Part shown: positions 2,650-45,746 of the stretch, in pieces
Layout: each line of letters starts with the position of its first letter
How positions within the stretch are numbered: the first letter of the stretch is position 1
Notes under the pieces: generated by a model
Seen by the model: the letters and a program-made list of their open reading frames with translations, nothing else
Databases searched by the model: none
Told to the model about the DNA's origin: nothing
Made by a program: the position numbers and the translations under genes
Assembly (NCBI GenBank): GCA_964016885.1
Contig: OZ024758.1
Location: forward strand, 29,140,001-29,204,000
Source: Eledone cirrhosa
Lineage: Eukaryota
Reading direction: 5' to 3'
Length of the DNA stretch: 64,000 nucleotides

Positions 2650-3145
2650 GTAAGTTATACCTTTTATTCTATATTTTGTTAACTGTCTTTTTTTTCTTTT
2701 TTTTTTCTTAATCCTCATCAAACTTTATTCTAATAAATTACTTGGTAAAAAAAAAATATATATATACATTTTTTCTAACTGTATATATTATATCTTTAAT
2801 ATCTGAAAACTTTGATGCCTGAAATGGAGCTGGCAACTCATCACAAAAAATCATGTCTTATTAGTAGTCAGGGATGTTATATGTGTGTGTGTCTGTGTGT
2901 ATACTCGATGTTGAAATGGCGTGAGTTCAGTCGTTGGACTATTTACAATATATATATATATTTGTTCTGTTTTGGCTTATCTGTACAAATATGGAAATAA
3001 GTAGTGTTCATTTTTTTTATTTTTTTTGCAATACAACAGTTATACTATCTAGGCTGTATAATAGTTTTTATGGCATGTTATTACACTATATACTCGAAAT
3101 ATGTTTTAAATATCAATGTCTTAGTTAGGTAACTAAATATATATA

Positions 3146-3505
3146 TCATCATCATCTTCATTTTACGTCTGCTTTTCCCTGCTTGCAAGGGTGGGACGGG
3201 AACTGATTCTGGCTTGATTTCTACAGCTGGATGCCCTTCCTAACACCAACCTCATTTACAGTGAGTGCTGGGTGCTTTTTTTTCTGTGGCGCCTACACGT
3301 CCTCTTTACAGTGTAGGCTGGGGGCTTTTTTGCCGTGGCACCTCCACAACCACTTTGCAGTGGAATGATAGGGACTGAGTAAACTGGAGCAATGTGAAAT
3401 AAAGTGTCTTGCTCAAGGAAACAACACATCACCCGGTCTAAGAATTGAACTCACAACCTTTCGATTGCAAGCCCAATGCTCTAACCACTAAGCCATGTGC
3501 CTCCA
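3146..3505 (-). mobile_element. tRNA-derived SINE, family B, with RTE-like 3' tail
   Basis: Reverse complement of the copy at 55708-56040. Has tggcttagtggttagagc, core tccttgagcaagacacttt, tail cttgcaagcagggaaaagc...(gat)n. Confidence 0.85.
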
Positions 3506-3845
3506 TATATATATATACAACAAAGGTAAAAATATATATAACTCAAATTTATGTTGAGAATTATTTATAATAGTATATAATTGCCAAACACCTTAGAAAT
3601 AGCTCAATGTGTTTATATATTAGTCTGAAGAAAAAGGAGATTTTATATATATTTATTCTACTCTCCATGAAAAACAGCACAGATTATCAAGGGGTTACTA
3701 AAAATGATGAACTGTCAAACTAGGAATGTATTGATTTTAACCTGATAAAAGTATAACACAAAGAAAATGTTAGACAATTCTTTACTTTTTCAATAAACAA
3801 TTCTGATTGTACATTCTTGGTTATATATATGATAATAGATATATA

Positions 3846-4037
3846 TAATTTTTTCTACATTTGGCACAAGGCCAGCAATTATCCCAGTGTATTACTGGTG
3901 CTTTATTTTGTCAACCTCGTAAGGATGAAAGGCAAAGTTAACCTCGGCGGGATTTGAACTCAGACCATAAAGGGCCATTACTCTTTGCTGCAAAGCATGG
4001 CGTCCGACCCTCTACCGATACTACCAATCCACCGCCC
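3846..4037 (-). mobile_element. SINE family A, inverted copy
   Basis: Reverse complement of the 1864-2056 and 10629-10820 copies (ggcacaaggccagcaatt...ggatgaaaggcaaagttaacctcggcgggatttgaactc...ccaatccaccgccc). Confidence 0.88.
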
Positions 4038-4049
4038 TTTATATATATA

Positions 4050-4360
4050 TAACATTAATAAAGATGCTGATGTTTATTCATTATAATTATTTCAACGGGT
4101 CTCCTATGCAATCAAGATGTAATTCATGCATTTGTTGTTATGAGAACGGTATCCTCAGACATATCTATGTCTGAGGATGCATGAGTAGAAGAACATATGT
4201 ATTTTCCTGCCGGTGGCATATCACAAAATCAAATTTCATCGAAGGATACCGTTCTCATAACAACAAATGCATGGATTACATCTTGATTGCATAGGAGAAC
4301 CGTTGAAATAATTATAAGGAATAAACGATTTATGTAACATCAGCATCTTTATTAATGTTG
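4050..4360. repeat. Foldback (long inverted repeat) element
   Basis: About 4050-4163 is the reverse complement of the right part (e.g. gcatttgttgttatgagaacggtatcc vs ggataccgttctcataacaacaaatgc). The central hairpin is atcctcagacata/tatgtctgaggat. Confidence 0.85.
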
Positions 4361-4491
4361 TTATACTGAATCTCCATCGTAACTACAAACTACGAATGTT
4401 GAGAGCTTTCTCCTGCTTGCTCCTGTTTTTACCAAAACAATCTCTTCAGAACACACACCACACACATATATATATACATATATATATATAT

Positions 4492-4668
4492 TGTCATCAT
4501 TTTACGTCAGCTTTTCCCTGCTTGCAAGGGTGAGACGGGTCCTCTTCAGCACATCATCTTTCCACTTGTTACAGTCCTTCGTCATCTCCTCTATAAGCTT
4601 CAGTGATCTAAGGTCAGCTCTCACCACCTCCGCCCATGTTTTCCATGGTCTTCCTCTACTCCGTCTTT
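4492..4668 (-). mobile_element. RTE-clade LINE 3' fragment
   Basis: The reverse strand encodes GRPWKTWAEVVRADLRSLKL-type C-terminal sequence and has the cttgcaagcagggaaaag...(gat)n tail. Homologous to 50655-50907 and 58635-58848. Confidence 0.75.
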
Positions 4669-7600: not shown

Positions 7601-7807
7601 TTGAATGTCTCTCCCTCTTTAATAACTACCAGTACAGCTTTCATAATGTCAGATCTATTATAGCCCTAAGTTAGTTAAGAGTGAGTCTTCAAAAGATTTG
7701 GTGAATCAGCAAAGTTTTCCACCCTGTCTGGCACATAAATTCCCTTTGAAAACTACATGCCTACAGGTTCCATTCATCTCTTAGTGACTTAGCTTGCATT
7801 ATCTCAG

Positions 7808-8185
7808 TGTGGATTGGATGTAGCGGTAGAGCATCAGACACCATGCTTTGCAGCATAGTTATGGCCCTTTACGTTCTGAATTCCAATCGCAGCGTGGTTA
7901 GCTTTGCCTTTCATCCTTACAGGATCGATAAAAAAAAAAAGCACCAGTAATGCACTGGGGTAATTACTGGCCTTGTGCCAAAAGTAGAAACACTTTTCTC
8001 AGTGTGAATTGGCAGAGTTACGGCCCTTTAAGTTCTGAGTTCAAATCCCGCCAAAGTTAGCTTTGCCTTTCATCGTTATGGAGTCAATGAAATAAAGTAC
8101 CAGTAATGCACTGGGGCTAGGGCTGATTTATATCAACTTTCCCCTCTCCCCAAATTGCTGGCCTTGTGCCTATAGTAGAAATCAT
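7808..8185 (+). mobile_element. Two adjacent SINE family A copies (about 7808-7992 and 8000-8185)
   Basis: Both have tttgcctttcatc, accagtaatgcactgggg and ggccttgtgcc..agtagaaa. Confidence 0.82.
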
Positions 8186-8199
8186 TATCTCAGTGTGTT

Positions 8200-8455
8200 C
8201 TGATGACATGCTCTTTTACACACCTTCTCTCAACTCTGTTCTCTCCTGGATTTTATCCCCCGCATTCTTCTATTATACATCAACTTCTATACAGATAATA
8301 CCTTTCATCCCTTGTTGATCTCCCACACTGACTTGCCACCCTCATACAACCTAGATGCTGCAAAGCAAATCTGCATTAACTCCATTAACAAAGATCTCAC
8401 AAACATCCTCACATGTGGACCTTCCATTCTTGTTTCCTTTAACAGCCAAAAGGTA
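8200..8455 (+). mobile_element. Highly decayed CR1/L2-like LINE reverse-transcriptase fragment
   Basis: Broken-frame remnants resembling FLLYIN, YTDNT (YADDT-like), INKDLTNI and LVSFNSQK. Confidence 0.4.
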
Positions 8456-8945: not shown

Positions 8946-9048
8946 GAATAAGATGACGAAGAGAAAGAAATATTTGAATAGGAAATGCAAACTTCATAAT
9001 AAATCCTTTTATCATCTTGATTTACAAAAGCACACAGTAAAACACTAA
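8946..9048 (+). CDS. Candidate alternative terminal exon of the septin (basic tail)
   Basis: Acceptor ctcctacaaccctcccag. In phase 2 it reads (E)NKMTKRKKYLNRKCKLHNKSFYHLDLQKHTVKH*, with AATAAA at 9052-9057. Prediction only. Confidence 0.25.
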
Positions 9049-9623: not shown

Positions 9624-9688
9624 CGTGGCCTGGTCTACTTTTTTTCGGTTGAAACGCTAAATCGATCAAAATATCACAAGGAGAGCAG
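9624..9688 (+). CDS. Candidate 65-nt cassette exon of the septin
   Basis: Strong acceptor tttctttcgctttcag and donor CAG|GTATGT. Phase 2 reads (D)VAWSTFFRLKR*; phase 0 reads open throughout. TGCATG at 9786 and ACTAAC at 9928 lie downstream. Prediction only. Confidence 0.5.
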
Positions 9689-10282
9689 GTATGTCGTGAA
9701 ATGCTAGTGAAGTAGATAAGAAATTGTAATCATAATTAAAACCACTGAATACTAAAACAGCCATCATGCTTTGAAAGCAGTTAAGTGCATGTTATTAGCA
9801 TGAACCTTTTTATAACCCTTTCATCTCTCCTTTTCTAAAAATGACCTCAACCATGGCATCTGTCAGATGTGTCACACACTATTGTATAATTACACATACA
9901 GTGATATTAAGATCTGGATCAGCATGTACTAACTTTTTATTCATATTTATATGAAGCTGACATGTTGATGCTTCTCATTGTTTGATCATTAAATCTTCAC
10001 CAATTTGTTTCAAATCTAAACTGTTTATCATAGTTGTTAGATACTGACAGTTTCACCATGTCTTTAAAAATAAACATTAGTTATATTAACACATTTTAAT
10101 AATTAATTTTACTGATTAAAATTTCTGTATTAAATTTAAATAAGTTTAACCCTTTTAATACCAAACCACTCTTGATTCTATGATACAAAACTATTTGTTA
10201 TAAAGTGTTAATATTTATCTTAAAACCTCTCGTCAAGATATTATATAAGAACCTGTAAGTTATGCTCCAAACACCATCTTAA

Positions 10283-13020: not shown

Positions 13021-13069
13021 GAATTTTATAAAAAGATTTTTGTGTTGTTCTCTGAAGCTTATTTTGTAG
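13021..13069 (+). CDS. Candidate 49-nt cassette exon (alternative septin tail) or recursive splice site
   Basis: Acceptor tttcttttaattcatgttag. Phase 2 reads (E)NFIKRFLCCSLKLIL*, and its TAG stop (13067-13069) is directly followed by GTAAGA. Prediction only. Confidence 0.4.
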
Positions 13070-15088: not shown

Positions 15089-15314
15089 TGAATATTTGTC
15101 TCAAATATTTTCAGTGGCTTTCGCAACTTGTGTGTCTTACCCTGCTAAGTGGAAACCAATGTGGTTTGTATTGTGTCCTTTGTACGTCTGTGTCATCCTG
15201 CTTAGCAGCTGCTATTCAGCTTCTTGTGTTGTCCTTATTGTGGCTAAGACTGTCAATATCCTTAAACAGTTTTATAATATTTACAAATTAGTTTATATTT
15301 GTATGTATCATTAG
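15089..15314 (+). CDS. Candidate alternative terminal exon encoding a hydrophobic, Cys-rich tail
   Basis: Acceptor ctcacctattcctgtcatacag (AG 15087-15088). Phase 2 enters ORF 15096..15314 exactly in frame: (D)EYLSQIFSVAFATCVSYPAKWKPMWFVLCPLYVCVILLSSCYSASCVVLIVAKTVNILKQ... Prediction only. Confidence 0.35.
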
Positions 15315-15645
15315 CTGGGGGGGGTTCAGAAAGTTGTCATCTTCACCTACACACATACCTTCATGTTACTGCTCAAACCCAACCCTGTGCATGATTTCAG
15401 AGCTTCAGTTGCCGCCTTGTTGTTATTATTTCAATCACAAGTTACAAGTAAAATAATGAAAGTTAGATTCTCCTATTTTGAGTGATATATTTATTTTTGT
15501 TTTTGCTAAAAAATAAAATCATTTAGGGCCAATTCTTAATGAACCTAATATATCATTTATTATTATTTTCATACAATGGCTATTTTATTGTTTATTGATC
15601 TAAGATATTTATTTTGTTTTATGGTAGGACAATATAATGTAGGGT

Positions 15646-17310: not shown

Positions 17311-20300
17311 GCAGTATTACAGTAAAGACTTTAGTGTGTGATACAATAGTCATAGTGTCGTATTTCAGTAAAGACTGGAGTATGTGATACAATACAGTCA
17401 TAGTGTAGTATTACAGTAAAGACTGGAGTATGTGATACAATACAGTCATAGTGTAGTATTACAGTAAAGACTGGAGTATGATACAATACAGTCATAGTGT
17501 AGTATTACAGTAAAGACTGGAGTATGATACAATACAGTCATAGTGTAGTATTACAGTAAAGACTGGAGTATGATACAATACAGTCATAGTGTAGTATTAC
17601 AGTAAAGACTGGAGTATGATACAATACAGTCATAGTGTAGTATTACAGTAAAGACTGGAGTATGATACAATACAATCACAGTGTAGTATTTACAGTAAAG
17701 ACTGGAGTATGTGATACAATACAGTCATAGTGTAGTATTACAGTAAAGACTGGAGTATGTGATACAATACAGTCATAGTGTAGTATTACAGTAAAGACTG
17801 GAGTATGTGATACAATACAGTCATAGTGTAGTATTACAGTAAAGACTGGAGTATGTGATACAATACAGGCATAGTGTAGTATTACAGTAAAGACTGGAGT
17901 ATGATACAATACTGTCATAGTGTATTATTACAGTAAAGACTGGAGTATGTGATACAATACAGTCATTGTGTAGTATTACAGTAAAGACTGGAGTATGATA
18001 CAATACTGTCATAGTGTATTATTACAGTAAAGACTGGAGTATGTGATACAATACAGTCATAGTGTAGTATTACAGTAAAGACTGGAGTATGTGATACAAT
18101 ACAGTCATAGTGTCTTATTACAGTAAAGACTGGAGTATGTGATACAATACAGTCATAGTGTAGTATTACAGTAAAGACTGGAGTATGTGATACAATACAG
18201 GCATAGTGTAGTATTACAGTAAAGACTGGAGTATGATACAATACTGTCATAGTGTATTATTACAGTAAAGACTGGAGTATGTGATACAATACAGTCATAG
18301 TGTCGTATTACAGTAAAGACTGGAGTATGTGATACAATACAGTCATAGTGTCTTATTACAGTAAAGACTGGAGTATGTGATACAATACAGTCATAGTGTA
18401 GTATTACAGTAAAGACTGGAGTATGTGATACAATACAGGCATAGTGTAGTATTACAGTAAAGACTGGAGTATGATACAATACTGTCATAGTGTATTATTA
18501 CAGTAAAGACTGGAGTATGTGATACAATACAGTCATAGTGTCGTATTACAGTAAAGACTGGAGTATGTGATACAATACAGTCATAGTGTAGTATTACAGT
18601 AAAGACTGGAGTATGTGATACAATACAGGCATAGTGTAGTATTACAGTAAAGACTGGTGTATGATACAATACAGTCATAGTGTAGTATTACATTAAAGAC
18701 TCGAGTATGTGATACAATACAGGCATAGTGTAGTATTACAGTAAAGACTGGAGTATGATACAATAGTCATAGTGTAGTATTACAGTAAAGACTGGAGTAT
18801 GTGATACAATACAGTCATAGTGTAGTATTACAGTAAAGACTGGAGTATGTGATACAATACAGTCATTGTGTAGTATTACAGTAAAGACTGGAGTATGTGA
18901 TACAATACAGTCATAGTGTAGTATTACAGTAAAGACTGGAGTATGTGATACAATACAGTCATTGTGTAGTATTACAGTAAAGACTGGAGTATGTGATACA
19001 ATAGTCAGTGTAGTATTACAGTAAAGACTGGAGTATGATACAATACAGGCATAGTGTAGTATTACAGTAAAGACTGGAGTATGTGATACAATACAGGCAT
19101 AGTGTAGTATTACAGTAAAGACTGGAGTATGATACAATACAGTCATAGTGTAGTATTACAGTAAAGACTGGAGTATGTGATACAATACAGTCATAGTGTC
19201 GTATTACAGTAAAGACTGGAGTATGTGATACAATACAGTCATAGTGTAGTATTACAGTAAAGACTGGAGTATGTGATACAATACAGGCATAGTGTAGTAT
19301 TACAGTAAAGACTGGACTATGATACAATACAGTCATAGTGTAGTATTACAGTAAAGACTGAAGTATTATACAATAGTCATAGTGTAGTATTACAGTAAAG
19401 ACTGGAGTATGTGATACAATAGTCATAGTGTAGTATTACAGTAAAGACTGGAGTGTGATACAATACAGTCATAGTGTAGTATTACAGTAAAGACTGGACT
19501 ATGATACAATAGTCATAGTGTAGTATTACAGTAAAGACTGGAGTATGTGATACAATACAGTCATAGTGTAGTATTACAGTAAAGACTGGAGTATGAGATA
19601 CAATAGTCATAGTGTAGTATTACAGTAAAGACTGGACTATGATACAATACAGTCATAGTGTAGTATTACAGTAAAGACTGGAGTATGTGATACAATAGTC
19701 ATAGTGTAGTATTACAGTAAAGACTGGACTATGATACAATACAGTCATAGTGTAGTATTACAGTAAAGACTGGAGTATGATACAATACAGTCATAGTGTA
19801 GTATTACAGTAAAGACTGGAGTATGTGATACAATAGTCATAGTGTAGTATTACAGTAAAGACTGGAGTATGTGATACAATACAGTCATAGTGTAGTATTA
19901 CAGTAAAGACTGGAGTATGAGATACAATTGTCTCATAGTGTAGTATTACAGTAAAGACTGGACTATGATACAATACAGTCATAGTGTAGTATTACAGTAA
20001 AGACTGGAGTATGTGATACAATAGTCATAGTGTAGTATTACAGTAAAGACTGGACTATGATACAATACAGTCATAGTGTAGTATTACAGTAAAGACTGGA
20101 GTATGATACAATACAGTCATAGTGTAGTATTACAGTAAAGACTGGAGTATGTGATACAATAGTCATAGTGTAGTATTACAGTAAAGACTGGAGTATGTGA
20201 TACAATACGGTCATAGTGTAGTATTACAGTAAAGACTGGAGTATGTGATACAATACGGTCATAGTGTAGTATTACAGTAAAGACTGGAGTATGTGATACA

Positions 20301-29300: not shown

Positions 29301-32300
29301 TAGTGTAGTATTACAGTAAAGACTGGAGTATGTGATACAATACAGTCATAGTGTAGTATGACAGTAAAGACTGGAGTATGTGATACAATATAGTCATAGT
29401 GTAGTATTACATTAAAGACTCGAGTATGTGATACAATACAGTCATAGTGTAGTATTACAGTAAAGACTGGAGTATGTGATACAATACAGTCATAGTGTAG
29501 TATTACAGTAAAGACTGGAGTATGTGATACAATACAGTCATAGTGTAGTATTACAGTAAAGACTGGAGTATGATACAATACAGTCATAGTGTAGTATTAC
29601 ATTAAAGACTCGAGTATGTGATACAATACAGGCATAGTGTAGTATTACAGTAAAGACTGGACTGATACAATACAGTCATAGTGTAGTATTACAGTAAAGA
29701 CTGGAGTATGTGATACAATACAGTCATAGTGTAGTATTACAGTAAATACTGGAGTATGTGATACAATAGTCATAGTGTAGTATTACAGTAAAGACTAGAG
29801 TATGTGATACAATACAGGCATAGTGTAGTATTACAGTAAAGACTGGAGTATGTGATACAATACAGTCATAGTGTAGTATTACAGTAAAGACTGGAGTATG
29901 TGATACAATACAGGCATAGTGTAGTATTACAGTAAAGACTGGAGTATGTGATACAATACAGGCATAGTGTAGTATTACAGTAAAGACTGGAGTATGTGAT
30001 ACAATACAGGCATAGTGTAGTATTACAGTAAAGACTGGAGTATGTGATACAATACAATCATAGTGTAGTATTACAGTAAAGACTGGAGTATGTGATACAA
30101 TACAGGCATAGTGTAGTATTACAGTAAAGACTGGAGTATGTGATACAATAGCCATAGTGTAGTATTACAGTAAAGACTGGACTATGATACAATACAGTCA
30201 TAGTGTAGTATTACAGTAAAGACTGGAGTATGTGATACAATACAGTCATAGTGTAGTATTACAGTAAAGACTGGAGTATGTGATACAATACAGTCATAGT
30301 GTATTATTACAGTAAAGAATGGAGTATGTGATACAATAGTCATAGTGTAGTATTACAGTAAAGACTGGAGTATGTGATACAATAGTCATAGTGTAGTATT
30401 ACAGTAAAGACTGGAGTATGATACAATAGTCATAGTGTAGTATTATAGTAAAGTCTGGAGTATGTGATACAATACAGTCATAGTGTAGTATTACAGTAAA
30501 GACTGGAGTATGATACAATACAGTCATAGTGTAGTATTACAGTAAAGACTGGAGTATGTGATACAATACAGTCATAGTGTAGTATTACAGTAAAGACTGG
30601 AGTATGTAATACAATACAGTCATAGTGTAGTATTACAGTAAAGACTGGAGTATGTGATACAATACAGTCATAGTGTAGTATTACAGTAAAGACAGGTGTA
30701 TGATACAATACAGTCAGTGTAGTATTACAGTTAAGACTGGAGTATGATACAATAGTCATAGTGTAGTATTACAGTAAAGACTGGTGTATGATACAATACA
30801 GTCATAGTGTAGTATTACAGTAAAGACTGGAGTATGTGATACAATACAGTCATAGTGTAGTATTACAGTAAAGACTGGAGTTTGTGATACAATACAGTCA
30901 TAGTGTAGTATTACAGTAAAGACTGGAGTATGATACAATAGTCATAGTGTAGTATTACAGTGAAGACGACTATGATACAATACAGTCATAGTGTAGTATT
31001 ACAGTAAAGACTGGAGTATGTGATACAATACAGTCATAGTGTAGTATTACAGTAAAGACTGGAGTATGATACAATAGTCATAGTGTAGTATTACAGTAAA
31101 GACTGGTGTATGATACAATAGTCATAGTGTAGTATTACAGTAAAGACTGGAGTATGTGATACAATAGTCATAGTGTAGTATTACAGTAAAGACTGGAGTA
31201 TGTGATACAATACAGGCATAGTGTAGTATTACAGTAAAGACTGGAGTATGATACAATAGTCATAGTGTAGTATTACAGTAAAGACTGGAGTATGTGATAC
31301 AATAGTCATAGTGTAGTATTACAGTAAAGACTGGAGTATGTGATACAATACAGGCATAGTGTAGTATTATAGTAAAGACTGGAGTATGATACAATAGTCA
31401 TAGTGTAGTATTACAGTAAAGACTGGTGTATGATACAATACAGTCATAGTGTAGTATTACAGTAAAGACTGGAGTATGATACAATACAGTCATAGTGTAG
31501 TATTACAGTAAAGACTGGAGTATGTGATACAATAGTCATAGTGTAGTATTACAGTAAAGACTGGAGTATGTGATACAATACAGTCATAGTGTAGTATTAC
31601 AGTAAAGACTGGAGTATGTGATACAATACAGTCATAGTGTAGTATTACAGTAAAGAGAGGAGTGTGATACAATAGTCATAGTGTAGTATTACAGTAAAGA
31701 CTGGAGTATGTGATACAATACTGTCATAGTGTAGTATTACAGTAAAGACTGGAGTATGATACAATAGTCATAGTGTAGTATTACAGTAAAGACTGGTGTA
31801 TGATACAATAGTCATAGTGTAGTATTACAGTAAAGACTGGAGTATGTGATACAATACAGTCATAGTGTAGTATTACAGTAAAGACTGGAGTATGATACAA
31901 TACGGTCATAGTGTAGTATTACAGTAAAGACTGGAGTATGTGATACAATAGTCATAGTGTAGTATTACAGTAAAGACTGGAGTATGTGATACAATACAGT
32001 CATAGTGTAGTATTACAGTAAAGACTGGAGTATGATACAATAGTCAGTGTAGTATTACAGTAAAGACTGGAGTATGTTACAATACAGTCATAGTGTAGTA
32101 TTACAGTAAAGACTGGAGTATGTTACAATACAGTCATAGTGTAGTACTACAGTAAAGACTGGAGTATGTTACAATACAGTCATAGTGTAGTATTACAGTA
32201 AAGACTGGAGTATGTTACAATACAGTCATAGTGTAGTATTACAGTAAAGACTGGAGTATGTTACAATACAGTCATAGTGTAGTATTACAGTAAAGACTGG

Positions 32301-35300
32301 AGTATGTGATACAATACAGTCATAGTGTAGTATTACAGTAAAGACTGGACTATGATACAATACAGTCATAGTGTAGTATTACAGTAAAGACTGGAGTATG
32401 TGATACAATACAGTCATAGTGTAGTATTACAGTAAAGACTGGAGTATGTGATACAATACAGTCATAGTGTAGTATTACAGTAAAGACTGGAGTATGTGAT
32501 ACAATACAGTCATAGTGTAGTATTACAGTAAAGACTGGAGTATGTGATACAATACAGTCATAGTGTAGTATTACAGTAAAGACTGGAGTATGTGATACAA
32601 TACAGTCATAGTGTAGTATTACAGTAAAGACTGGAGTATGTGATACAATACAGTCTTAGTGTAGTATTACAGTAAAGACTGGAGTATGTGATACAATAGT
32701 CATAGTGTAGTATTACAGTAAAGACTGGAGTATGTGATACAATACAGTCATAGTGTAGTATTACAGTAAAGACTGGAGTATGATACAATACAGTCATAGT
32801 GTAGTATTACAGTAAAGACTGGAGTATGTGATACAATACAGTCACAGTGTAGTATTACAGTAAAGACTGGAGTATGTGATACAATACAGTCATAGTGTAG
32901 TATTACAGTAAAGACTGGAGTATGTGATACAATACAGTCATAGTGTAGTATTACAGTAAAGACTGGAGTATGTGATACAATACAGTCATAGTGTAGTATT
33001 ACAGTAAAGACTGGAGTATGATACAATACAGTCATAGTGTAGTATTACAGTAAAGACTGGAGTATGTGATACAATACAGTCATAGTGTAGTATTACAGTA
33101 AAGACTGGAGTATGTGATACAATACAGTCATAGTGTAGTATTACAGTAAAGACTGGAGTATGTGATACAATACAGTCATAGTGTAGTATTACAGTAAAGA
33201 CTGGAGTATATGATACAATACAGTCATAGTGTAGTATTACAGTAAAGACTGGAGTGTGATGCAATACTGTCATAGTGTATTATTACAGTAAAGACTGGAG
33301 TATGATACAATAGTCATAGTGTAGTATTACAGTGAAGACGACTATGATACAATACAGTCATAGTGTAGTATTACAGTAAAGACTGGAGTATGATACAATA
33401 GTCATAGTGTAGTATTACAGTAAAGACTGGACTATGATACAATACAGTCATAGTGTAGTATTACAGTAAAGACTGGAGTATGTGATACAATACAGTCATA
33501 GTGTAGTATTACAGTAAAGACTGGAGTATGTGATACAATACAGTCATAGTGTATTATTACAGTAAAGAATGGAGTATGTGATACAATAGTCATAGTGTAG
33601 TATTACAGTAAAGACTGGAGTATGTGATACAATAGTCATAGTGTAGTATTACAGTAAAGACTGGAGTATGATACAATAGTCATAGTGTAGTATTACAGTA
33701 AAGTCTGGAGTATGTGATACAATACAGTCATAGTGTAGTATTACAGTAAGGACTGGAGTATGTGATACAATACAGTCATAGTGTAGTATTACAGTAAAGA
33801 CTGGAGTATGTGATACAATACAGTCATAGTGTAGTATTACAGTAAAGACTGGAGTATGTGATACAATACAGTCATAGTGTAGTATTACAGTAAAGACTGG
33901 AGTATGTGATACAATACAGTCATAGTGTAGTATTACAGTAAAGACTGGAGTATGTGATACAATACAGTCATAGTGTAGTATTACAGTAAAGACTGGAGTA
34001 TGTGATACAATACAGTCATAGTGTAGTATTACAGTAAAGACTGGAGTATGTGATACAATACAGTCATAGTGTAGTATTACAGTAAAGACAGGTGTATGAT
34101 ACAATACAGTCAGTGTAGTATTACAGTAAAGACTGGAGTATGATACAATAGTCATAGTGTAGTATTACAGTAAAGACTGGTGTATGATACAATACAGTCA
34201 TAGTGTAGTATTACAGTAAAGACTGGAGTATGTGATACAATACAGTCATAGTGTAGTATTACAGTAAAGACTGGAGTTTGTGATACAATACAGTCATAGT
34301 GTAGTATTACAGTAAAGACTGGAGTATGATACAATAGTCATAGTGTAGTATTACAGTGAAGACGACTATGATACAATACAGTCATAGTGTAGTATTACAG
34401 TAAAGACTGGAGTATGATACAATAGTCATAGTGTAGTATTACAGTAAAGACTGGTGTATGATACAATACAGTCATAGTGTAGTATTACAGTAAAGACTGG
34501 AGTATGATACAATACAGTCATAGTGTAGTATTACAGTAAAGACTGGAGTATGTGATACAATAGTCATAGTGTAGTATTACAGTAAAGACTGGAGTATGTG
34601 ATACAATACAGTCATAGTGTAGTATTACAGTAAAGACTGGAGTATGTGATACAATACAGTCATAGTGTAGTATTACAGTAAAGAGAGGAGTGTGATACAA
34701 TAGTCATAGTGTAGTATTACAGTAAAGACTGGAGTATGTGATACAATACTGTCATAGTGTAGTATTACAGTAAAGACTGGAGTATGATACAATAGTCATA
34801 GTGTAGTATTACAGTAAAGACTGGTGTATGATACAATAGTCATAGTGTAGTATTACAGTAAAGACTGGAGTATGTGATACAATACAGTCATAGTGTAGTA
34901 TTACAGTAAAGACTGGAGTATGATACAATACGGTCATAGTGTAGTATTACAGTAAAGACTGGAGTATGTGATACAATAGTCATAGTGTAGTATTACAGTA
35001 AAGACTGGAGTATGTGATACAATACAGTCATAGTGTAGTATTACAGTAAAGACTGGAGTATGATACAATAGTCAGTGTAGTATTACAGTAAAGACTGGAG
35101 TATGTTACAATACAGTCATAGTGTAGTATTACAGTAAAGACTGGAGTATGTTACAATACAGTCATAGTGTAGTACTACAGTAAAGACTGGAGTATGTTAC
35201 AATACAGTCATAGTGTAGTATTACAGTAAAGACTGGAGTATGTTACAATACAGTCATAGTGTAGTATTACAGTAAAGACTGGAGTATGTTACAATACAGT

Positions 35301-38300
35301 CATAGTGTAGTATTACAGTAAAGACTGGAGTATGTGATACAATAGTCATAGTGTAGTATTACAGTAAAGACTGGACTATGATACAATACAGTCATAGTGT
35401 AGTATTACAGTAAAGACTGGAGTATGTGATACAATACAGTCATAGTGTAGTATTACAGTAAAGACTGGAGTATGTGATACAATACAGTCATAGTGTAGTA
35501 TTACAGTAAAGACTGGAGTATGTGATACAATACAGTCATAGTGTAGTATTACAGTAAAGACTGGAGTATGTGATACAATACAGTCATAGTGTAGTATTAC
35601 AGTAAAGACTGGACTATGATACAATACAGTCATAGTGTAGTATTACAGTAAAGACGAGTATGATACAATACAGTCATAGTGTAGTATTACAGTAAACACT
35701 GGAGTATGTGATACAATAGTCATAGTGTAGTATTACAGTAAAGACTGGTGTATGATACAATACAGTCATAGTGTGGTATTACAGTAAAGACTGGAGTATG
35801 ATACAATACAGTCATAGTGTAGTATTACAGTAAAAACTGGAGTATGTGATACAATACAGTCATAGTGTAGTATTACAGTAAAGACTGGACTATGATACAA
35901 TACAGTCATAGTGTAGTATTACAGTAAAGACTGGAGTATGTGATACAATACAGTCATAGTGTAGTATTACAGTAAAGACTGGAGTATGTGATACAATACA
36001 GTCATAGTGTAGTATTACAGTAAAGACTGGAGTATGATACAATAGTCATAGTGTATTATTACAGTAAAGACTGGAGTATGTGATACAATAGTCATAGTGT
36101 AGTATTACAGTAAAGACTGGAGTATGAGATACAATACAGTCATAGTGTAGTATTACAGTAAAGACTGGAGTATGTGATACAATACAGTCATAGTGTAGTA
36201 TTACAGTAAAGACTGGAGTATGTGATACAATACAGTCATAGTGTAGTATTACAGTAAAGACTGGACTATGATACAATACAGTCATAGTGTAGTATTACAG
36301 TAAAGACTGGAGTATGATACAATACAGTCATAGTGTAGTATTACAGTAAAGACTGGAGTATGTGATACAATAGTCAGTGTAGTATTACAGTAAAGACTGG
36401 AGTATGTGATACAATACAGTCATAGTGTAGTATTACAGTAAAGACTGGAGTATGTGATACAATACAGTCATAGTGTAGTATTACAGTAAAGACTGGAGTA
36501 TGTGATACAATACAGTCATAGTGTAGTATTACAGTAAAGACTGGAGTATGTGATACAATACAGTCTTAGTGTAGTATTACAGTAAAGACTGGAGTATGTG
36601 ATACAATAGTCATAGTGTAGTATTACAGTAAAGACTGGAGTATGTGATACAATACAGTCATAGTGTAGTATTACAGTAAAGACTGGAGTATGATACAATA
36701 CAGTCATAGTGTAGTATTACAGTAAAGACTGGAGTATGTGATACAATACAGTCACAGTGTAGTATTACAGTAAAGACTGGAGTATGTGATACAATACAGT
36801 CATAGTGTAGTATTACAGTAAAGACTGGAGTATGTGATACAATACAGTCATAGTGTAGTATTACAGTAAAGACTGGAGTATGATACAATACAGTCATAGT
36901 GTAGTATTACAGTAAAGACTGGAGTATGTGATACAATACAGTCATAGTGTAGTATTACAGTAAAGACTGGAGTATGTGATACAATACAGTCATAGTGTAG
37001 TATTACAGTAAAGACTGGAGTATGTGATACAATACAGTCATAGTGTAGTATTACAGTAAAGACTGGAGTATATGATACAATACAGTCATAGTGTAGTATT
37101 ACAGTAAAGACTGGAGTGTGATGCAATACTGTCATAGTGTATTATTACAGTAAAGACTGGAGTATGTGATACAATACAGTCATAGTGTAGTATTACAGTA
37201 AAGACTGGAGTATGATACAATACTGTCATAGTGTATTATTACAGTAAAGACTGGAGTATGTGATACAATACAGTCATAGTGTAGTATTACAGTAAAGACT
37301 GGAGTATGTGATACAATACAGTCATAGTGTCGTATTACAGTAAAGACTGGAGTATGTGATACAATACAGTCATAGTGTAGTATTACAGTAAAGACTGGAG
37401 TATGTGATACAATACAGTCATAGTGTAGTATTACAGTAAAGACTGGAGTATGTGATACAATACAGTCATAGTGTAGTATTACAGTAAAGACTGGAGTATG
37501 ATACAATACAGTCATAGTGTAGTATTACAGTAAAGACTGGAGTATGATACAATACTGTCATAGTGTATTATTACAGTAAAGACTGGAGTATGTGATACAA
37601 TACAGTCATAGTGTAGTATTACAGTAAAGACTGGAGTATGATACAATACTGTCATAGTGTATTATTACAGTAAAGACTGGAGTATGTGATACAATACAGT
37701 CATAGTGTAGTATTACAGTAAAGACTGGAGTATGTGATACAATACAGTCATAGTGTCGTATTACAGTAAAGACTGGAGTATGTGATACAATACAGTCATA
37801 GTGTAGTATTACAGTAAAGACTGGAGTATGTGATACAATACAGGCATAGTGTAGTATTACAGTAAAGACTGGAGTATGATACAATACTGTCATAGTGTAT
37901 TATTACAGTAAAGACTGGAGTATGTGATACAATACAGTCATAGTGTAGTATTACAGTAAAGACTGGAGTATGATACAATACTGTCATAGTGTATTATTAC
38001 AGTAAAGACTGGAGTATGTGATACAATACAGTCATAGTGTAGTATTACAGTAAAGACTGGAGTATGTGATACAATAGTCATATTGTCGTATTACAGTAAA
38101 GACTGGAGTATGTGATACAATACAGTCATAGTGTAGTATTACAGTAAAGACTGGAGTATGTGATACAATACAGGCATAGTGTAGTATTACAGTAAAGACT
38201 GGAGTATGATACAATACTGTCATAGTGTATTATTACAGTAAAGACTGGAGTATGTGATACAATACAGTCATAGTGTCGTATTACAGTAAAGACTGGAGTA

Positions 38301-41300
38301 TGTGATACAATACAGTCATAGTGTAGTATTACAGTAAAGACTGGAGTATGTGATACAATACAGGCATAGTGTAGTATTACAGTAAAGACTGGAGTATGAT
38401 ACAATAGTCATAGTGTAGTATTACATTAAAGACTCCAGTATATGATACAATACAGGCATAGTGTAGTATTACAGTAAAGACTGGTGTATGATACAATACA
38501 GTCATAGTGTAGTATTACATTAAAGACTCGAGTATGTGATACAATACAGGCATAGTGTAGTATTACAGTAAAGACTGGAGTATGATACAATAGTCATAGT
38601 GTAGTATTACAGTAAAGACTGGAGTATGTGATACAATACAGTCATAGTGTAGTATTACAGTAAAGACTGGAGTATGTGATACAATACAGTCATTGTGTAG
38701 TATTACAGTAAAGACTGGAGTATGTGATACAATACAGTCATAGTGTAGTATTACAGTAAAGACTGGAGTATGTGATACAATACAGTCATTGTGTAGTATT
38801 ACAGTAAAGACTGGAGTATGTGATACAATAGTCAGTGTAGTATTACAGTAAAGACTGGAGTATGATACAATACAGGCATAGTGTAGTATTACAGTAAAGA
38901 CTGGAGTATGTGATACAATACAGGCATAGTGTAGTATTACAGTAAAAACTGGAGTATGATACAATACAGTCATAGTGTAATATTATAGTAAAGACTGGAG
39001 TATGATACAATACAGTGATAGTGTAGTATTACAGTAAAGACTGGAGTATGTGATACAATACAGTCATAGTGTAGTATTACAGTAAAGACTGGAGTATGTG
39101 ATACAATACAGTCATAGTGTAGTATTACAGTAAAGACTGGACTATGATACAATACAGTCATAGTGTAGTATTACAGTAAAGACTGGAGTATGTGATACAA
39201 TAGTCATAGTGTAGTATTACAGTAAAGACTGGAGTATGTGATACAATACTGTCATAGTGTAGTATTACAGTAAAGACTGAAGTATGATACAATACAGTCA
39301 TAGTGTAGTATTACAGTAAAGACTGGAGTATGTGATACAATACAGTCATAGTGTAGTATTACAGTAAAGACTGGAGTATGTGATACAATACAGTCATAGT
39401 GTAGTATTACAGTAAAGAGAGGAGTATGATACAATAGTCATAGTGTAGTATTACAGTAAAGACTGGAGTATGTGATACAATACTGTCATAGTGTAGTATT
39501 ACAGTAAAGACTGAAGTATGATACAATACAGTCATAGTGTAGTATTACAGTAAAGACTGGAGTATGTGATACAATACAGTCATAGTGTAGTATTACAGTA
39601 AAGACTGGAGTATGTGATACAATAGTCATAGTGTAGTATTACAGTAAAGACTGGAGTATGATACAATACAGTCATAGTGTAGTATGACAGTAAAGACTGG
39701 AGTATGTGATACAATACAGTCATAGTGTAGTATTACAGTAAAGAGAGGAGTATGTGATACAATACAGTCATAGTGTAGTATTACAGTAAAGACTGGAGTA
39801 TGTGATACAATACAGTCATAGTGTAGTATTACAGTAAAGAGAGGAGTATGTGATACAATAGTCATAGTGTAGTATTACAGTAAAGACTGGAGTATGTGAT
39901 ACAATAGTCATAGTGTAGTATTACAGCAAAGACTGGAGTATGTGATACAATACTGTCATAGTGTAGTATTACAGTAAAGAGAGGAGTATGTGATACAATA
40001 CAGTCATAGTGTAGTATTACAGTAAAGACTGGAGTATGACACAATACAGTCATAGTGTAGTATTACAGTAAAGAGAGGAGTATGATACAATACTGTCATA
40101 GTGTAGTATTACAGTAAAGACTGGAGTATGTGATACAATACTGTCATAGTGTAGTATTACAGTAAAGACTGGAGTATGATACAATACAGTCATAGTGTAG
40201 TATTACAGTAAAGACTGGAGTATGTGATACAATACAGTCATAGTGCAGTATTACAGTAAAGACTGGAGTATGTGATACAATACAGTCATAGTGTAGTATT
40301 ACAGTAAAGACTGGAGTATGTGATACAATACAGTCATAGTGTAGTATTACAGTAAAGACTGGAGTATGTGATACAATACTGTCATAGTGTAGTATTACAG
40401 TAAAGACTGGAGTATGTGATACAATACTGTCATAGTGTAGTATTACAGTAAAGACTGGAGTATGACACAATACAGTCATAGTGTAGTATTACAGTAAAGA
40501 GAGGAGTATGATACAATACTGTCATAGTGTAGTATTACAGTAAAGACTGGAGTATGTGATACAATACTGTCATAGTGTAGTATTACAGTAAAGACTGGAG
40601 TATGTGATACAATACATAGTGTAGTATTACAGTAAAGACTGGACTATGATACAATACAGTCATAGTGTAGTATTACAGTAAAGACTGGAGTATGTGATAC
40701 AATACAGTCATAGTGTAGTATTACAGTAAAGACTGGAGTATGTGATACAATACAGTCATAGTGTAGTATTACAGTAAAGACTGGAGTATGTGATACAATA
40801 CAGTCATAGTGTAGTATTACAGTAAAGACTGGACTATGATACAATACAGTCATAGTGTAGTATTACAGTAAAGACTGGAGTATGTGATACAATACAGTCA
40901 TAATGTAGTATTACAGTAAAGACTGGAGTATGTGATACAATACAGTCACAGTGTAGTATTACAGTAAAGACTGGAGTATGTGATACAATACAGTCACAGT
41001 GTAGTATTACAGTAAAGACTGGAGTATGTGATACAATACAGTCACAGTGTAGTATTACAGTAAAGACTGGAGTATGTGATACAATACAGTCATAGTGTAG
41101 TATTACAGTAAAGACTGGAGTATGATACAATAGTCATAGTGTAGTATTACAGTAAAGACTGGAGTATGTGATACAATACAGTCATAGTGTAGTATTACAG
41201 TAAAGACTGGAGTATGTGATACAATACAGTCATAGTGTAGTATTACAGTAAAGACTGGAGTATGTGATACAATACAGTCATAGTGTAGTATTACAGTAAA

Positions 41301-42839
41301 GACTGGACTATGATACAATACAGTCATAGTGTAGTATTACAGTAAAGACTGGAGTATGTGATACAATACAGTCATAGTGTAGTATTACAGTAAAGACTTG
41401 AGTATGATACAATACAGTCATAGTGTAATATTATAGTAAAGACTGGAGTATGATACAATACAGTCATAGTGTAGTATTACAGTAAAGACTGGAGTATGTG
41501 ATACAATACAGTCATAGTGTAGTATTACAGTAAAGACTGGAGTATGTGATACAATACAGTCATAGTGTAGTATTACAGTAAAGACTGGACTATGATACAA
41601 TACAGTCATAGTGTAGTATTACAGTAAAGACTGGAGTATGTGATACAATACTGTCATAGTGTAGTATTACAGTAAAGACTGAAGTATGATACAATACAGT
41701 CATAGTGTAGTATTACAGTAAAGACTGGAGTATGTGATACAATACAGTCATAGTGTAGTATTACAGTAAAGACTGGAGTATGTGATACAATACAGTCATA
41801 GTGTAGTATTACAGTAAAGCCTGGAGTATGATACAATACAGTCATAGTGTAGTATGACAGTAAAGACTGGAGTATGTGATACAATACAGTCATAGTGTAG
41901 TATTACAGTAAAGAGAGGAGTATGTGATACAATACAGTCATAGTGTAGTATTACAGTAAAGACTGGAGTATGTGATACAATACAGTCATAGTGTAGTATT
42001 ACAGTAAAGAGAGGAGTATGTGATACAATAGTCATAGTGTAGTATTACAGTAAAGACTGGAGTATGACACAATACAGTCATAGTGTAGTATTACAGTAAA
42101 GAGAGGAGTATGATACAATACTGTCATAGTGTAGTATTACAGTAAAGACTGGAGTATGTGATACAATACTGTCATAGTGTAGTATTACAGTAAAGACTGG
42201 AGTATGATACAATACAGTCATAGTGTAGTATTACAGTAAAGACTGGAGTATGTGATACAATACAGTCATAGTGTAGTATTACAGTAAAGAGAGGAGTATG
42301 TGATACAATACAGTCATAGTGTAGTATTACAGTAAAGACTGGAGTATGTGATACAATACTGTCAGTGTAGTATTACAGTAAAGACTGGAGTATGTGATAC
42401 AATACAGTCATAGTGTAGTATTACAGTAAAGACTGGAGTATGTGATACAATACAGTCATAGTGTAGTATTACAGTAAAGACTGGAGTATGTGATACAATA
42501 CAGTCATAGTGTAGTATTACAGTAAAGACTGGAGTATGTGATACAATACAGTCATAGTGTAGTATTACAGTAAAGACTGGAGTATGTGATACAATACTGT
42601 CATAGTGTAGTATTACAGTAAAGACTGGAGTATGTGATACAATACTGTCATAGTGTAGTATTACAGTAAAGACTGGAGTATGACACAATACAGTCAGTGT
42701 AGTATTACAGTAAAGAGAGGAGTATGATACAATACTGTCATAGTGTAGTATTACAGTAAAGACTGGAGTATGTGATACAATACTGTCATAGTGTAGTATT
42801 ACAGTAAAGACTGGAGTATGATACAATACAGTCATAGTG
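17311..42839. repeat. Intronic satellite, 48-bp unit (46- and 44-bp variants), about 25.5 kb, roughly 540 copies
   Basis: Consensus CATAGTGTAGTATTACAGTAAAGACTGGAGTATGTGATACAATACAGT repeated head-to-tail without interruption. Copy number is estimated from length divided by unit size. Confidence 0.99.
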
Positions 42840-44629
42840 CTGTTTTATACTTTTCGAGAATGTCTTGATGATAATCTTAATTGATGTGGCACAGGAAGTT
42901 GATTGATTTACTTAAACTTCTGAAACTTTTATTTCCTCTACTGGGGATAGATTCTTCCAGTCTCATTTATACTTTATATCCAGAGACTGTATTACAGTGA
43001 TATTATGTTATTTTAGGTGCACCCAAAATATTTTGGACATTCTTCTCTCCCATGAAAATATTATTTGTCTTTACTGTTCAGTCCAGAACACTTCATACTT
43101 ACTGTCCTCATGACATTCATGGGCCACCTTTTTATTTCACATAAATTCTAGAACTCTGCTACAACTTTTTCCCTCTATTTTTAACTCCTTTCAATCCATT
43201 TACATACATAGTCTTACATATGGTAGAACACAGAACCGTATGTAAACCCTCAGCCTGTCTGGTAGGTCTGTCCACACACACTTCTGTACAGACTTGGTCT
43301 GTAAAGATCCGTCCAACTCTTGCTAGCAGGGAAAATGGACATTAAATAAATATGAATATGAAGCCGCATGGTCTATTGAACTTCACAGTATGTTGTGTAT
43401 TCCCTGGTACTGAGTAGACTTAGAATCAAGTATATCCAAACTATGATCATCTTTCCCTTCTTTTAGAGATTGTTTCTCTAAGACTACTTTCTCCATGGTG
43501 TCTCTCCAATTTCTAGGTAGTAAGGTGTAATTTGAAGTTGATTTGGCTACTGTTTCTGGCAGGTTGTAACTATGTAAAAAACCCTTTTGACTCTCTTCTA
43601 AGGCAAGACTTACTGGTAAGTTTTCTCTTAGTATGGAAGATAGGTATTCCTAAGTTATTGTCCTTATTTCACAGTCTATTCTAAAAATTAGTTCTTCTCT
43701 GTGAAAAGCAACTGCTACAAAGGTATCCTAGAAGTCCCAGATCTAGTAAAGGGGTTTCTCTCTATCTTAATCTTTTTAAAAATTACCAGTGACTAGTTTG
43801 TTTCAGTGGTTGTCCGGTACTTTAAGTTTGTGAATCTTTTTATCAGTAGAAAATTGATCTGGCTTTCAATTCCATTTTGTTGGTTAGCTCTTGAAATTTT
43901 AGTTAAATCTATTTGCATCAAAACTTCCTAGAGTTTCCTGCTTTCATCATTTCTATTTTCATTGCATGACAATAGCCTCTATTCATACCAGTGTATACAT
44001 ACTTTTTTTTTTAAATTAAAATCACCTTAGACAAGCAAGTTATCTTAGCCTACCTTTGAAGTAGTTCTCACTAGAACCTCAGTTTTTTTACATAGAATGT
44101 TAAAATAAAGCTGTAATGTTTATTTTCAATGTAACTTGAATTTTGATGATCAATATTTGTCAAGAAATAATTGCATTTGTACAAGAATTCTGTACGAAAT
44201 ATTGTTTTAGAATTGAAATCTTACTTAGCTTAACTTTCTTTCATAACTCAGCTGTTGATAACTATAATTCTTAATTAGATACACTGAGTTCGGTTCAATC
44301 AATTATATGCCCTAGTATTATAACAACATTACAGAAAGAACATCTATTTTTACTGTGATGCTACTGTTGGTTATTTTGGTATAAACGTTAGAGGGCACAA
44401 CATGGCGGCCAAGTGGGTAAGAAGTCCATTTTACAATCATGTTTCAAATCCAGTCCTACTATGTGGCATGTTGGGCAGGTGCCTTCTATCATAACCTCAG
44501 GTCAACTCAAACCTTGTGAATGAAATTGGGTATTTAGAAGCTGTTTGGAAGACTCTACCTGCAATTAATAGATTGTGTTATCATTGTTACAAATTGTACA
44601 ATGCTGAATATCTCTGTAAATTACATAAA

Positions 44630-44840
44630 CCCTTTAGCATTTAAACCAGCCATATCCGACCAGAATTCTCTCACCTCTTTCTGTTCAAACCTGCTGTAAC
44701 TGGCCACTCATACTGATGTTAAGGTATTGTTCTCAAAATAAATAATATCAAAGTCTCATAGATTCAACATGTGAGGTAAAGCCTTTACCATGAAAATACA
44801 ATGGTATATATAGAGTAAGAGTAATGTGAATGCTAAAGAG
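44630..44840 (+). mobile_element. piggyBac-like MITE copy, nested in an older SINE-like element (about 44390-44940)
   Basis: taaa|ccctttagcattt...aatgctaaagag|ttaa; body matches 10283-10502. Confidence 0.7.
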
Positions 44841-45712
44841 TTAAAGGCACCATGTGTCTGAAATACTCAGCCACTTACAGATTAATTAATCTTTTGACTG
44901 AACAACTCAAACACTCTTCATCAAAACAAATGGAAGTCCATTTACTTATCTTTTTAGTTACAGGATGTGAATAGATTCATAAAATTTCAAATTTTTAATA
45001 AACATTACCAAAAAGAAATTTAATTTTATTTAAGTATTTAAGTATTTACATTAAGTTAGTTTGTCATTTTATTTTTTATTTTATTGCACGTCTTTTTGCC
45101 TAATATTAATTTTAATTATTCAACTAGCTCTAAGGTCACAATTTTTTTATAAATGTTTTGTCTATGTTGTTTGCGATGTCTGATTTTTTTATTTCTTCTG
45201 ATTCTGTTCATATTATAGATATATCAATGGGATTGGTTGTCGGAATCAAAATAGTTCCAAATTAATGTTTTGGGTTTTTTTCTCTATTCATTGGGGGTTT
45301 TTTATTGGCAATTCTGTTATTTATGTTTTAACCCCAAAATATTAGTTATTATAGCTTTATCAACTTTGATCTTTGTTTAATATTAAGGTTTTGTCAATAT
45401 CATTTTAGTAGCATGAAAAATACAAATACAATATTTTGGGAAGTATAAATTTCTTTAAAAATGCTCTACAAACTTAGTTTGCAGCTCTTTATTTATTTGA
45501 TTCCATTGCTTCCTTCAATTAGTCTCTTAATTAGAGACTAACTACATTTTCATGAAATTCATTTAGCAAAACTTTTTTTTTTTTATTCAAATTATTTTTT
45601 CACTTTCTGGTGGAAATTATTTTATCTGTTTGTCCCTTTTTAACTGTTTATCTTTAATTACATTATTTTTTTTATTAAACTTTAATATTTTTTTTTGTTT
45701 TATTTTCCACAG

Positions 45713-45746
45713 TTCAAAGAAAGATAAGAAGAAGTCTATATTTTGA
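45713..45746 (+). CDS. SEPT7: Septin-7-like terminal coding exon (polybasic tail and stop)
   Basis: Long pyrimidine tract ...ttttccacag (AG 45711-45712). Phase 2 gives (D)SKKDKKKSIF*, matching the SEPT7 ending KKKGKIF*. TGA at 45744-45746. Confidence 0.88.

What the first reader, a model, noticed from the sequence alone, without database searches (positions are those of the whole stretch)
2650..45746. Possible 'tail-switch' system: a series of phase-compatible alternative C-terminal exons in the 43-kb last intron of SEPT7
Seen: the phase-2 donor at 2649 can join several AG acceptors that give distinct tails. These are 8946 (basic, with its own AATAAA), 9624 (VAWSTFFRLKR*), 13021 (NFIKRFLCCSLKLIL*), 15089 (long hydrophobic), 45219 (hydrophobic) and the canonical 45713 (SKKDKKKSIF*). 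Established: septins bind membranes through polybasic regions and amphipathic helices, and a transmembrane isoform is reported for C. elegans UNC-61. Inference: alternative splicing may choose the membrane-attachment mode of this septin. Caveat: I picked these by eye from many AGs in an AT-rich intron, so some or all may be chance.
Basis: partly seen in the sequence, partly recalled or inferred. Interest (0 to 1): 0.7.

Follow-up and report, generated by a model that had tools for sequence, protein, structure and literature searches.

The report
Octopus septin-7 swaps its tail
The last intron of this octopus septin-7 gene hides two small exons that match alternative protein tails annotated in related octopuses, so splicing likely swaps the usual basic tail for an aromatic or a cysteine-bearing one and would change how the septin grips membranes; three of the other proposed tails look like chance.

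Summary
Partly real. The gene is an octopod SEPT7; all six acceptors and peptides are in the sequence, but 108 comparable acceptors lie in the intron, 59% of which is satellite. Orthologues sort the candidates. 9624 (DVAWSTFFRLKR) matches, 11 of 12 residues, a tail annotated in three Octopus species; it is a 65-nt stop-containing exon with its own strong donor, so probably a cassette. 15089 looks like the wrong acceptor: the one at 15115 gives DGFRNLCVLPC, 11 of 11 identical to O. sinensis isoform X3. 13021 (49 nt, strong donor, Cys-Cys between basic residues) is plausible but has no orthologue among 392 proteins. 8946, 15089 and 45219 have no support. The one spliced contig seen for this organism joins 2649 to 45713 directly. 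Snails, bivalves and hymenopteran insects also vary SEPT7 at this junction; the wasp and sawfly insert (FFR[LF]xKR) resembles the octopus tail. Most likely a tissue-regulated switch from a polybasic tail to aromatic-basic or palmitoylatable tails, working like mouse Sept8 exon 10b. No transmembrane isoform is supported; membrane function and tissue pattern are untested.

The parts
94..229 (+). SEPT7 coding exon (coiled coil); its 3' end and donor are copied by the 68-bp repeat
   Evidence: tblastn of O. sinensis septin-7; boundaries
2504..2649 (+). Last common coding exon (end of coiled coil, RRRSLENTK), phase-2 donor
   Evidence: 44 of 48 aa identical to O. sinensis; contig X1 record 1 lies on exactly 2504-2649
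9624..9688 (+). 65-nt stop-containing alternative exon, tail DVAWSTFFRLKR*, stop ends 9660; donor CAG|GTATGT after 9688 (cassette use inferred)
   Evidence: 11/12 aa to tails of O. sinensis, O. vulgaris, O. bimaculoides isoforms; donor 8/9 match to U1, one of 9 such sites in 17.5 kb
9786..9933 (+). Three GCATG motifs (Rbfox-type, name recalled) and one ACTAAC downstream of the 9624 exon; candidate splicing enhancer
   Evidence: 3 GCATG in 250 nt, reached by 0.6% of 680 overlapping windows; post hoc, one of 70 comparisons
13021..13069 (+). Candidate 49-nt exon, tail ENFIKRFLCCSLKLIL*, stop ends at a TAG|GTAAGA donor; unconfirmed (about 45%)
   Evidence: donor 7/9; Cys-Cys with basic neighbours; one match in the genome; no orthologue in 392 proteins
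15115..15148 (+). Coding part of an alternative exon, tail DGFRNLCVLPC*; 3' end unknown (no donor of 6/9 or better before 15365; AATAAA at 15512)
   Evidence: 11/11 aa identical to O. sinensis septin-7 isoform X3, P0019; one match in the genome
15089..15314 (+).
8946..9048 (+).
   Evidence: no orthologue; no strong donor; A/T-rich poly(A)-like hexamers are frequent here (12 in 1.2 kb)
17313..42839 (.). 48-bp tandem satellite, 545 copies, 59% of the intron
45219..45345 (+).
   Evidence: no orthologue; hydropathy 1.57, below 1.6; no donor
45713..46881 (+). Canonical last exon: tail DSKKDKKKSIF* (stop ends 45746) and at least 1.1 kb of 3' UTR
   Evidence: 10/11 aa to Octopus and Argonauta; direct 2649-45713 join inferred from contig X1 coordinates

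Best explanation
This octopod SEPT7 gene has one phase-2 donor and, besides the canonical last exon, two small intronic exons that match annotated tails of other octopuses, so alternative splicing likely replaces the polybasic tail with an aromatic-basic or a cysteine-bearing one, which would change how the septin filament attaches to membranes. Shown: the exons, their peptides, the orthologous isoforms in three Octopus species (9624) or one (15115), and a spliced contig of this organism that fits the direct 2649-45713 join. Inferred: 9624 is a 65-nt cassette that splices on to 45713 and turns the canonical exon into 3' UTR; its stop lies 28 nt before that last junction, which would escape nonsense-mediated decay (50-nt rule, recalled); inclusion would be neural or muscular, driven by the GCATG cluster downstream. 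Inferred function: KKDKKK binds acidic lipids by charge; WSTFFRLKR would insert aromatic side chains; Cys tails (15115, and 13021 if real) would be palmitoylated like mouse SEPT8-X1. Odds per exon: 9624 0.93, 15115 0.8, 13021 0.45, each of 8946, 15089, 45219 0.1 or less.
For: Tails of 25 named Octopus isoforms: 18, 6 and 1; only acceptors 9624, 45713 and 15115 of 4030 reproduce them. Conservation holds although this species differs from O. sinensis at 4 of 48 residues of the donor exon and 19 of 123 of the N-terminal extension. Strong donor at 9689. Other molluscs and insects vary SEPT7 at the same point: Pomacea (3 tails, one with Cys), Biomphalaria, Bradybaena, Gigantopelta (2 each), in-frame inserts in Mytilus, Mya, Dreissena, Babylonia, and D.FFR[LF].KR-type inserts in Cephus, Vespula, Vespa, Venturia. 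The SEPT7 end is a regulated site: C-terminal polybasic region EKNKKKGK in human SEPT7, whose acylation raises membrane affinity (PMC10924143, passages); T426 phosphorylation moves Sept7 into spines (PMC9114808, passages); Pnut T509/S517 phosphorylation alters membrane association (PMC5765355, passages). Precedent: mouse Sept8 has four alternative acceptors after exon 9, one encoding palmitoylated Cys-Cys with basic neighbours (PMC6092797, passages).
Against: No alternative junction was seen in this organism: the only spliced contig on the donor exon fits the canonical join. All 18 proteins of the two cuttlefish/unnamed coleoid clusters and the one Argonauta protein carry the canonical tail, as do all oyster and scallop RefSeq isoforms read. 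The Octopus isoforms are automated predictions, and 18 of 25 reflects combinatorial listing, not abundance. The 15115 tail is annotated in one species only; 10 informative identities would arise with probability 0.02-0.19 at the divergence of this gene's own N-terminal extension. The 9624 tail is a weak amphipathic helix (moment 0.34). Snail tails do not resemble the octopus ones, so the tail sequence turns over. YCAY (Nova) motifs are not enriched around any candidate. Nothing here tests membrane binding or palmitoylation.
Confidence: 0.6

Rival explanations
1. The alternative tails act by deletion: what matters is losing the KKDKKKSIF end (its lipid or protein partner, or a phospho/14-3-3 context next to RRRSLE), and the replacement sequence is of little importance.
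For: Replacement tails differ between octopus, caenogastropods and pulmonates, some are in-frame inserts; the canonical K-rich tail ending in a hydrophobic-Phe is kept in all groups read.
Against: The 9624 tail is kept at 11 of 12 residues across four octopods, identical in three species; aromatic-plus-basic character recurs in pulmonate (RKWMSLK) and wasp (FFRLYKR) variants.
Confidence: 0.2
2. The stop-containing exons are regulatory (poison or noise) exons that lower SEPT7 output or change the 3' UTR; their peptides are hardly made.
For: Both donor-flanked exons carry stops (9624, 13021); no alternative tail in 18 cuttlefish/unnamed coleoid proteins assembled mostly from sequencing runs.
Against: Stops lie 28 and 0 nt before the next junction, too close for classical junction-dependent decay if they splice to the last exon; peptide conservation across species.
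Confidence: 0.12
3. One reading: five or six tails, including transmembrane ones at 15089 and 45219 and a basic one at 8946, all in use.
For: The peptides exist; 15089 has a better pyrimidine tract than 15115 (15 vs 13 of 20) and hydropathy 2.43, so it could be a minor upstream acceptor of the same exon.
Against: No orthologue in 392 proteins, 301 of them comparable in register; 6 of 108 random acceptors give such hydrophobic stretches; no strong donors.
Confidence: 0.05
4. All candidates are chance; only 2649-45713 is used in this species and the matches are relics.
For: Only the canonical join was seen.
Against: Acceptor, frame, stop and peptide of two exons match annotated isoforms of other species; one contig from one sample shows presence only.
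Confidence: 0.03

Closest known systems
Mouse Sept8 alternative last exons 10a/10b (SEPT8-X5 / SEPT8-X1), NOVA-regulated; PMC6092797 (passages)
   Same: Several mutually exclusive acceptors after one exon give a septin different C-termini; one tail has two Cys with basic neighbours and is palmitoylated, promoting dendrites and spines.
   Different: SEPT6 group, vertebrate, true last exons controlled through polyadenylation by NOVA; here SEPT7 group, mollusc, at least one stop-containing cassette, no YCAY enrichment, palmitoylation untested.
Transmembrane septins: C. elegans UNC-61a, tarsier SEPT10; PMC10690161 (passages and section 6)
   Same: An isoform-specific terminal segment retargets a septin to membranes.
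   Different: UNC-61a's segment is N-terminal from an alternative start; the supported octopus tails are 11-12 aa, too short to span a membrane; the paper has 0 occurrences of 'octopus' or 'SEPT7'.
RefSeq/GenBank predicted septin-7 isoforms of Octopus sinensis, O. bimaculoides, O. vulgaris
   Same: The same three tails are already on record as automated predictions.
   Different: Not discussed as a system in the papers found; 13021 is not among them.
K-Ras4A/4B and Cdc42 alternative last exons (recalled, no call)
   Same: Splicing swaps a polybasic tail for a palmitoylated one.
   Different: Small GTPases with CaaX prenylation; none of these tails ends in a standard CaaX box.

Membership tests
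SEPT7 group of septins | Septin GTPase domain, best match to Septin-7 over other groups | tested here: met
   Exons mapped upstream and in the window at 83-100% identity to O. sinensis septin-7; the orthologue P0002 matches human Septin-7 at E 3e-198 against 5e-117 for Septin-2; PF00735
SEPT7 group of septins | C-terminal coiled coil ending in a polybasic K-rich tail | tested here: met
   45713 exon DSKKDKKKSIF; same type in all groups read
Alternative C-terminal exon (tail switch) | Two or more acceptors used from one donor, seen in transcripts of this species | tested here: inconclusive
Alternative C-terminal exon (tail switch) | Exon, frame and stop conserved in related species | tested here: met
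   At protein level for 9624 (three species) and 15115 (one species); not met for 8946, 13021, 15089, 45219; intron DNA of relatives not available
Sept8-10b-type palmitoylated tail (filopodia-inducing motif) | Two adjacent Cys with nearby basic residues | tested here: inconclusive
   Met in sequence by 13021 only, which is unconfirmed; 4 of 108 comparable acceptors do the same; 15115 has two non-adjacent Cys; 9624 none
Sept8-10b-type palmitoylated tail (filopodia-inducing motif) | Palmitoylation shown biochemically | not testable with these tools
   needs acyl-RAC
Sept8-10b-type palmitoylated tail (filopodia-inducing motif) | NOVA control through YCAY clusters | tested here: not met
   No candidate has YCAY density above the 7.8% tail of the intron background; motif counts only
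Transmembrane septins | An expressed isoform with a segment long and hydrophobic enough to span a membrane | tested here: not met
   Supported tails are 11-12 aa; only the unsupported 15089 frame passes hydropathy 1.6

The most novel reading that the evidence does not exclude
The last junction of SEPT7 is an ancient protostome switch point: the octopus STFFRLKR tail and the wasp/sawfly FFR[LF]xKR microexon descend from one exon over 500 million years old, and octopods have added one or two cysteine tails (15115, 13021), giving the core, non-redundant septin subunit a neural, palmitoylation-based membrane anchor in parallel to vertebrate SEPT8. Only 1 of 866 non-satellite acceptors gives the FFR[LF].KR pattern (pattern chosen after seeing it), but no intermediate group read carries it.
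Probability: 0.2. Interest if true: 0.72.

Novelty: new variant of a known kind. Interest (0 to 1): 0.5.

Why it matters
How septin filaments hold membranes is an open question, and SEPT7 is the one subunit in every animal hexamer. A splice switch on its tail would retune the whole filament in a tissue. The finding gives three short natural tails, a fourth candidate and a look-alike insect microexon that can be tested directly in cells and on liposomes, and it suggests octopus neurons reached the vertebrate SEPT8 solution on a different subunit. Tempering this: the isoforms are already in databases as predictions, and alternative septin tails are known in mammals.

Tried and rejected
Sequencing runs: no RNA holder listed; four contig sets of one study, kind not on record. 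Laid on 2300-9050 only: X2-X4 run through the intron like DNA; X1 behaves as spliced. X1 has no cover in the bin holding 8946, which is no evidence of absence. Loose-end and joint tables were filled by repeats, so no list of junctions from the donor was obtained; exons 9624, 13021, 15115 and 45219 were never laid. Short-protein search (13 hits) and search of 50% representatives with the C-terminal 60 residues (37 hits; 7 read, all 29 new ones) gave mostly genomic read-through fragments and no new tail. Metagenome scans for cephalopod DNA: 0 matches to the 9624 pattern, 2 weak loci at 54% over 26 aa, not followed. Earlier findings: none by place, words or sequence. Octopus Iso-Seq annotation in the supplement of PMC9699675 could not be read (218 MB GTF); a search of what was held of files 1 and 3 found no septin, file 2 not searched; it may bear directly on exon use. 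Rejected: transposon origin of 13021 and 15115 (one match each in the genome; outside repeats seen locally); Nova control; classic amphipathic helix for 9624; transmembrane tails; the AATAAA after 8946 as evidence. No structure or complex was predicted: it would not test membrane binding of an 11-residue tail.
Full report
What the locus is. The window holds the 3' end of a septin-7 gene of an octopod (G000, 3.0 Gb). Exons of O. sinensis septin-7 map upstream in L002-L007 and at window 94-229 and 2504-2649; the O. bimaculoides orthologue matches human Septin-7 at E 3e-198 against 5e-117 for Septin-2. The species is none of the three annotated Octopus species by protein: 44 of 48 residues of the donor exon and 104 of 123 of the N-terminal extension match O. 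sinensis.

Check of the observation. The intron is 43,063 nt, but 25,527 nt are one 48-bp satellite. The peptide character alone therefore says nothing.

Orthologues sort the candidates. The two Octopus clusters hold 26 proteins, 25 full-length and named, 1 an N-terminal fragment. After RRSLENTK, 18 end DAAWSTFFRLKR (O. sinensis, O. vulgaris, O. bimaculoides), 6 end DTKKDKKKSIF (same three species) and 1 ends DGFRNLCVLPC (O. sinensis X3). Translating all 4030 acceptors, these tails are matched by 9624 (11 of 12, next best 5), 45713 (10 of 11, next best 5) and 15115 (11 of 11, next best 4). Against all 392 proteins held, 301 comparable in register, 8946, 13021, 15089 and 45219 reach at most 5 of 34, 4 of 16, 8 of 75 and 6 of 42 identities. 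Cautions: these isoforms are automated predictions; the counts are not abundances; 15115 rests on one species, and ten informative identities have probability 0.02 to 0.19 at the divergence of the gene's own N-terminal extension, lower if intron DNA diverges faster.

Exon anatomy. Nine donors with 7 or more of 9 matches to U1 (consensus recalled) lie in the 17.5 kb outside the satellite; nine upstream donors of the gene and the 2649 donor score 5 to 7. One strong donor (8 of 9) closes the 9624 exon at 9688, making a 65-nt exon whose stop is 28 nt before its end; another (7 of 9) follows the stop of 13021 immediately, making a 49-nt exon. So 9624 is probably a cassette that splices on to 45713 and turns the canonical exon into UTR, not a terminal exon; this join is inferred, not seen. 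Such stops would escape junction-dependent decay (50-nt rule, recalled). For 13021: 6 of 108 acceptors have a strong donor 20-100 nt downstream and 4 of 108 give Cys-Cys with basic neighbours; only 13021 has both (about 0.2 expected, post hoc). I put it at 45%. 15115 has no strong donor nearby and an AATAAA at 15512, so it may be terminal. 8946, 15089 and 45219 have no strong donor. Three GCATG motifs lie within 250 nt downstream of 9624, a density reached by 0.6% of 680 overlapping windows, in one of 70 comparisons; YCAY is not enriched anywhere. 13021 and 15115 have one match each in the genome.

Transcript evidence in this organism. No run on record as RNA was listed. On 2300-9050, record 1 of run X1 (2822 nt) lies on exactly 2504-2649 with no difference and not on the flanking intron, and again on a dispersed repeat at 7853-7933 with 12 differences. 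The copy of that repeat in the 3' UTR at 46799-46879 differs from 7853-7933 at 12 places, 6 of which are listed with the same letters, and the distance from the donor in the record (1086 nt) equals the distance from 45713 (1086 nt). X1 is thus a spliced contig with the direct 2649-45713 join.

Beyond octopus. All 18 proteins of two further coleoid clusters (2 named Sepia pharaonis, 16 unnamed) and one Argonauta protein end in the canonical tail. Variation at the same point is common elsewhere: Pomacea has three ends (DGKKDKKRLF, EALPILLSCWYPK, EWRRSKERH), Biomphalaria, Bradybaena and Gigantopelta two each, Physella and Lymnaea a KW-containing end; Mytilus, Mya, Dreissena and Babylonia have in-frame inserts; the oyster and scallop RefSeq isoforms read show only the canonical end. 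Cephus, Vespula, Vespa and Venturia have an optional 7-8 residue insert there reading D.FFR[LF].KR, Neodiprion DYFWFLKR. Only 9624 among 866 acceptors gives that pattern, but I chose the pattern after seeing it and no snail or bivalve read carries it, so convergence is more likely than homology. I read clusters for 23 of the proteins found, at most 15 members each.

How it most likely works. Default splicing gives the K-rich tail, the counterpart of the human SEPT7 C-terminal polybasic region (PMC10924143, passages). Inclusion of a small exon stops translation 11 to 16 residues after the coiled coil with a tail that is aromatic-basic (9624) or has cysteines (15115, perhaps 13021). The end of SEPT7 is known to be regulated: T426 phosphorylation and 14-3-3 binding in neurons (PMC9114808, passages), Pnut T509/S517 phosphorylation and membrane association (PMC5765355, abstract and passages). 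The closest precedent is mouse Sept8, where four acceptors follow exon 9 and the NOVA-promoted exon 10b encodes palmitoylated C469/C470 with basic neighbours that drive dendritic branching (PMC6092797, passages); a review lists Sept8-204 as a palmitoylation substrate (PMC12403631, passages; the primary paper seen as a title only). I infer a tissue-regulated change from charge-based to aromatic or lipid-based attachment; confidence 0.6 for the whole, about 0.9 that at least one alternative tail is real. The 9624 tail is not a strong amphipathic helix. The transmembrane reading is not supported; UNC-61a's segment is N-terminal (PMC10690161, passages and section 6).

Novelty. The three tails are on record as predicted isoforms. 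Nine literature searches (listings only, except the papers named) showed no paper on alternative C-terminal exons of SEPT7 in molluscs or insects; a review of neural septins had no 'splic' or 'palmitoyl' (PMC12512388, passages); the library lacks most subscription journals, and the octopus Iso-Seq annotation in PMC9699675 (passages and supplement list seen) could not be read. Verdict: a new variant of a known kind, real in part, smaller than proposed, function untested; interest 0.5.

Noticed in passing
window 210-1256: A 68-bp tandem repeat (15.4 copies, 98% alike) starts inside coding exon 94-229 and copies the exon's last 19-20 nt and its GTGAGT donor about 15 times; use of a later copy would run into a stop.
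   Followed up: no
window 17313-42839: 25.5-kb array of a 48-bp unit (545 copies, strong G and A skew) inside the last intron of an essential gene.
   Followed up: no
L003:1445-1474 (about 18.5 kb upstream of the window): A 30-nt in-frame microexon in the GTPase domain (KDLKGGKFFK); Octopus and Sepia isoforms come in pairs 10 aa apart (593/603, 439/449, 440/450, 605/615), so it is likely alternative.
   Followed up: partly
P0076-P0141, P0328-P0339 (hymenopteran septin-7/pnut): Optional 7-8 aa insert and two alternative last exons at the same junction, one with a long Gly/Ser-rich tail ending QHPEHP.
   Followed up: partly
window 59467-59790: 107-aa open frame that looks like a Tc1/mariner transposase fragment (label from recall; no Pfam match at E 0.01).
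   Followed up: partly
window 46799-46879: A dispersed short repeat in the 3' UTR, with copies at 1914, 7853, 8012, 10679 and 56735; the X1 contig ends in it.
   Followed up: partly
window 61635-64000: 38-bp tandem repeat, 62 copies or more, running off the window.
   Followed up: no
   Followed up: no
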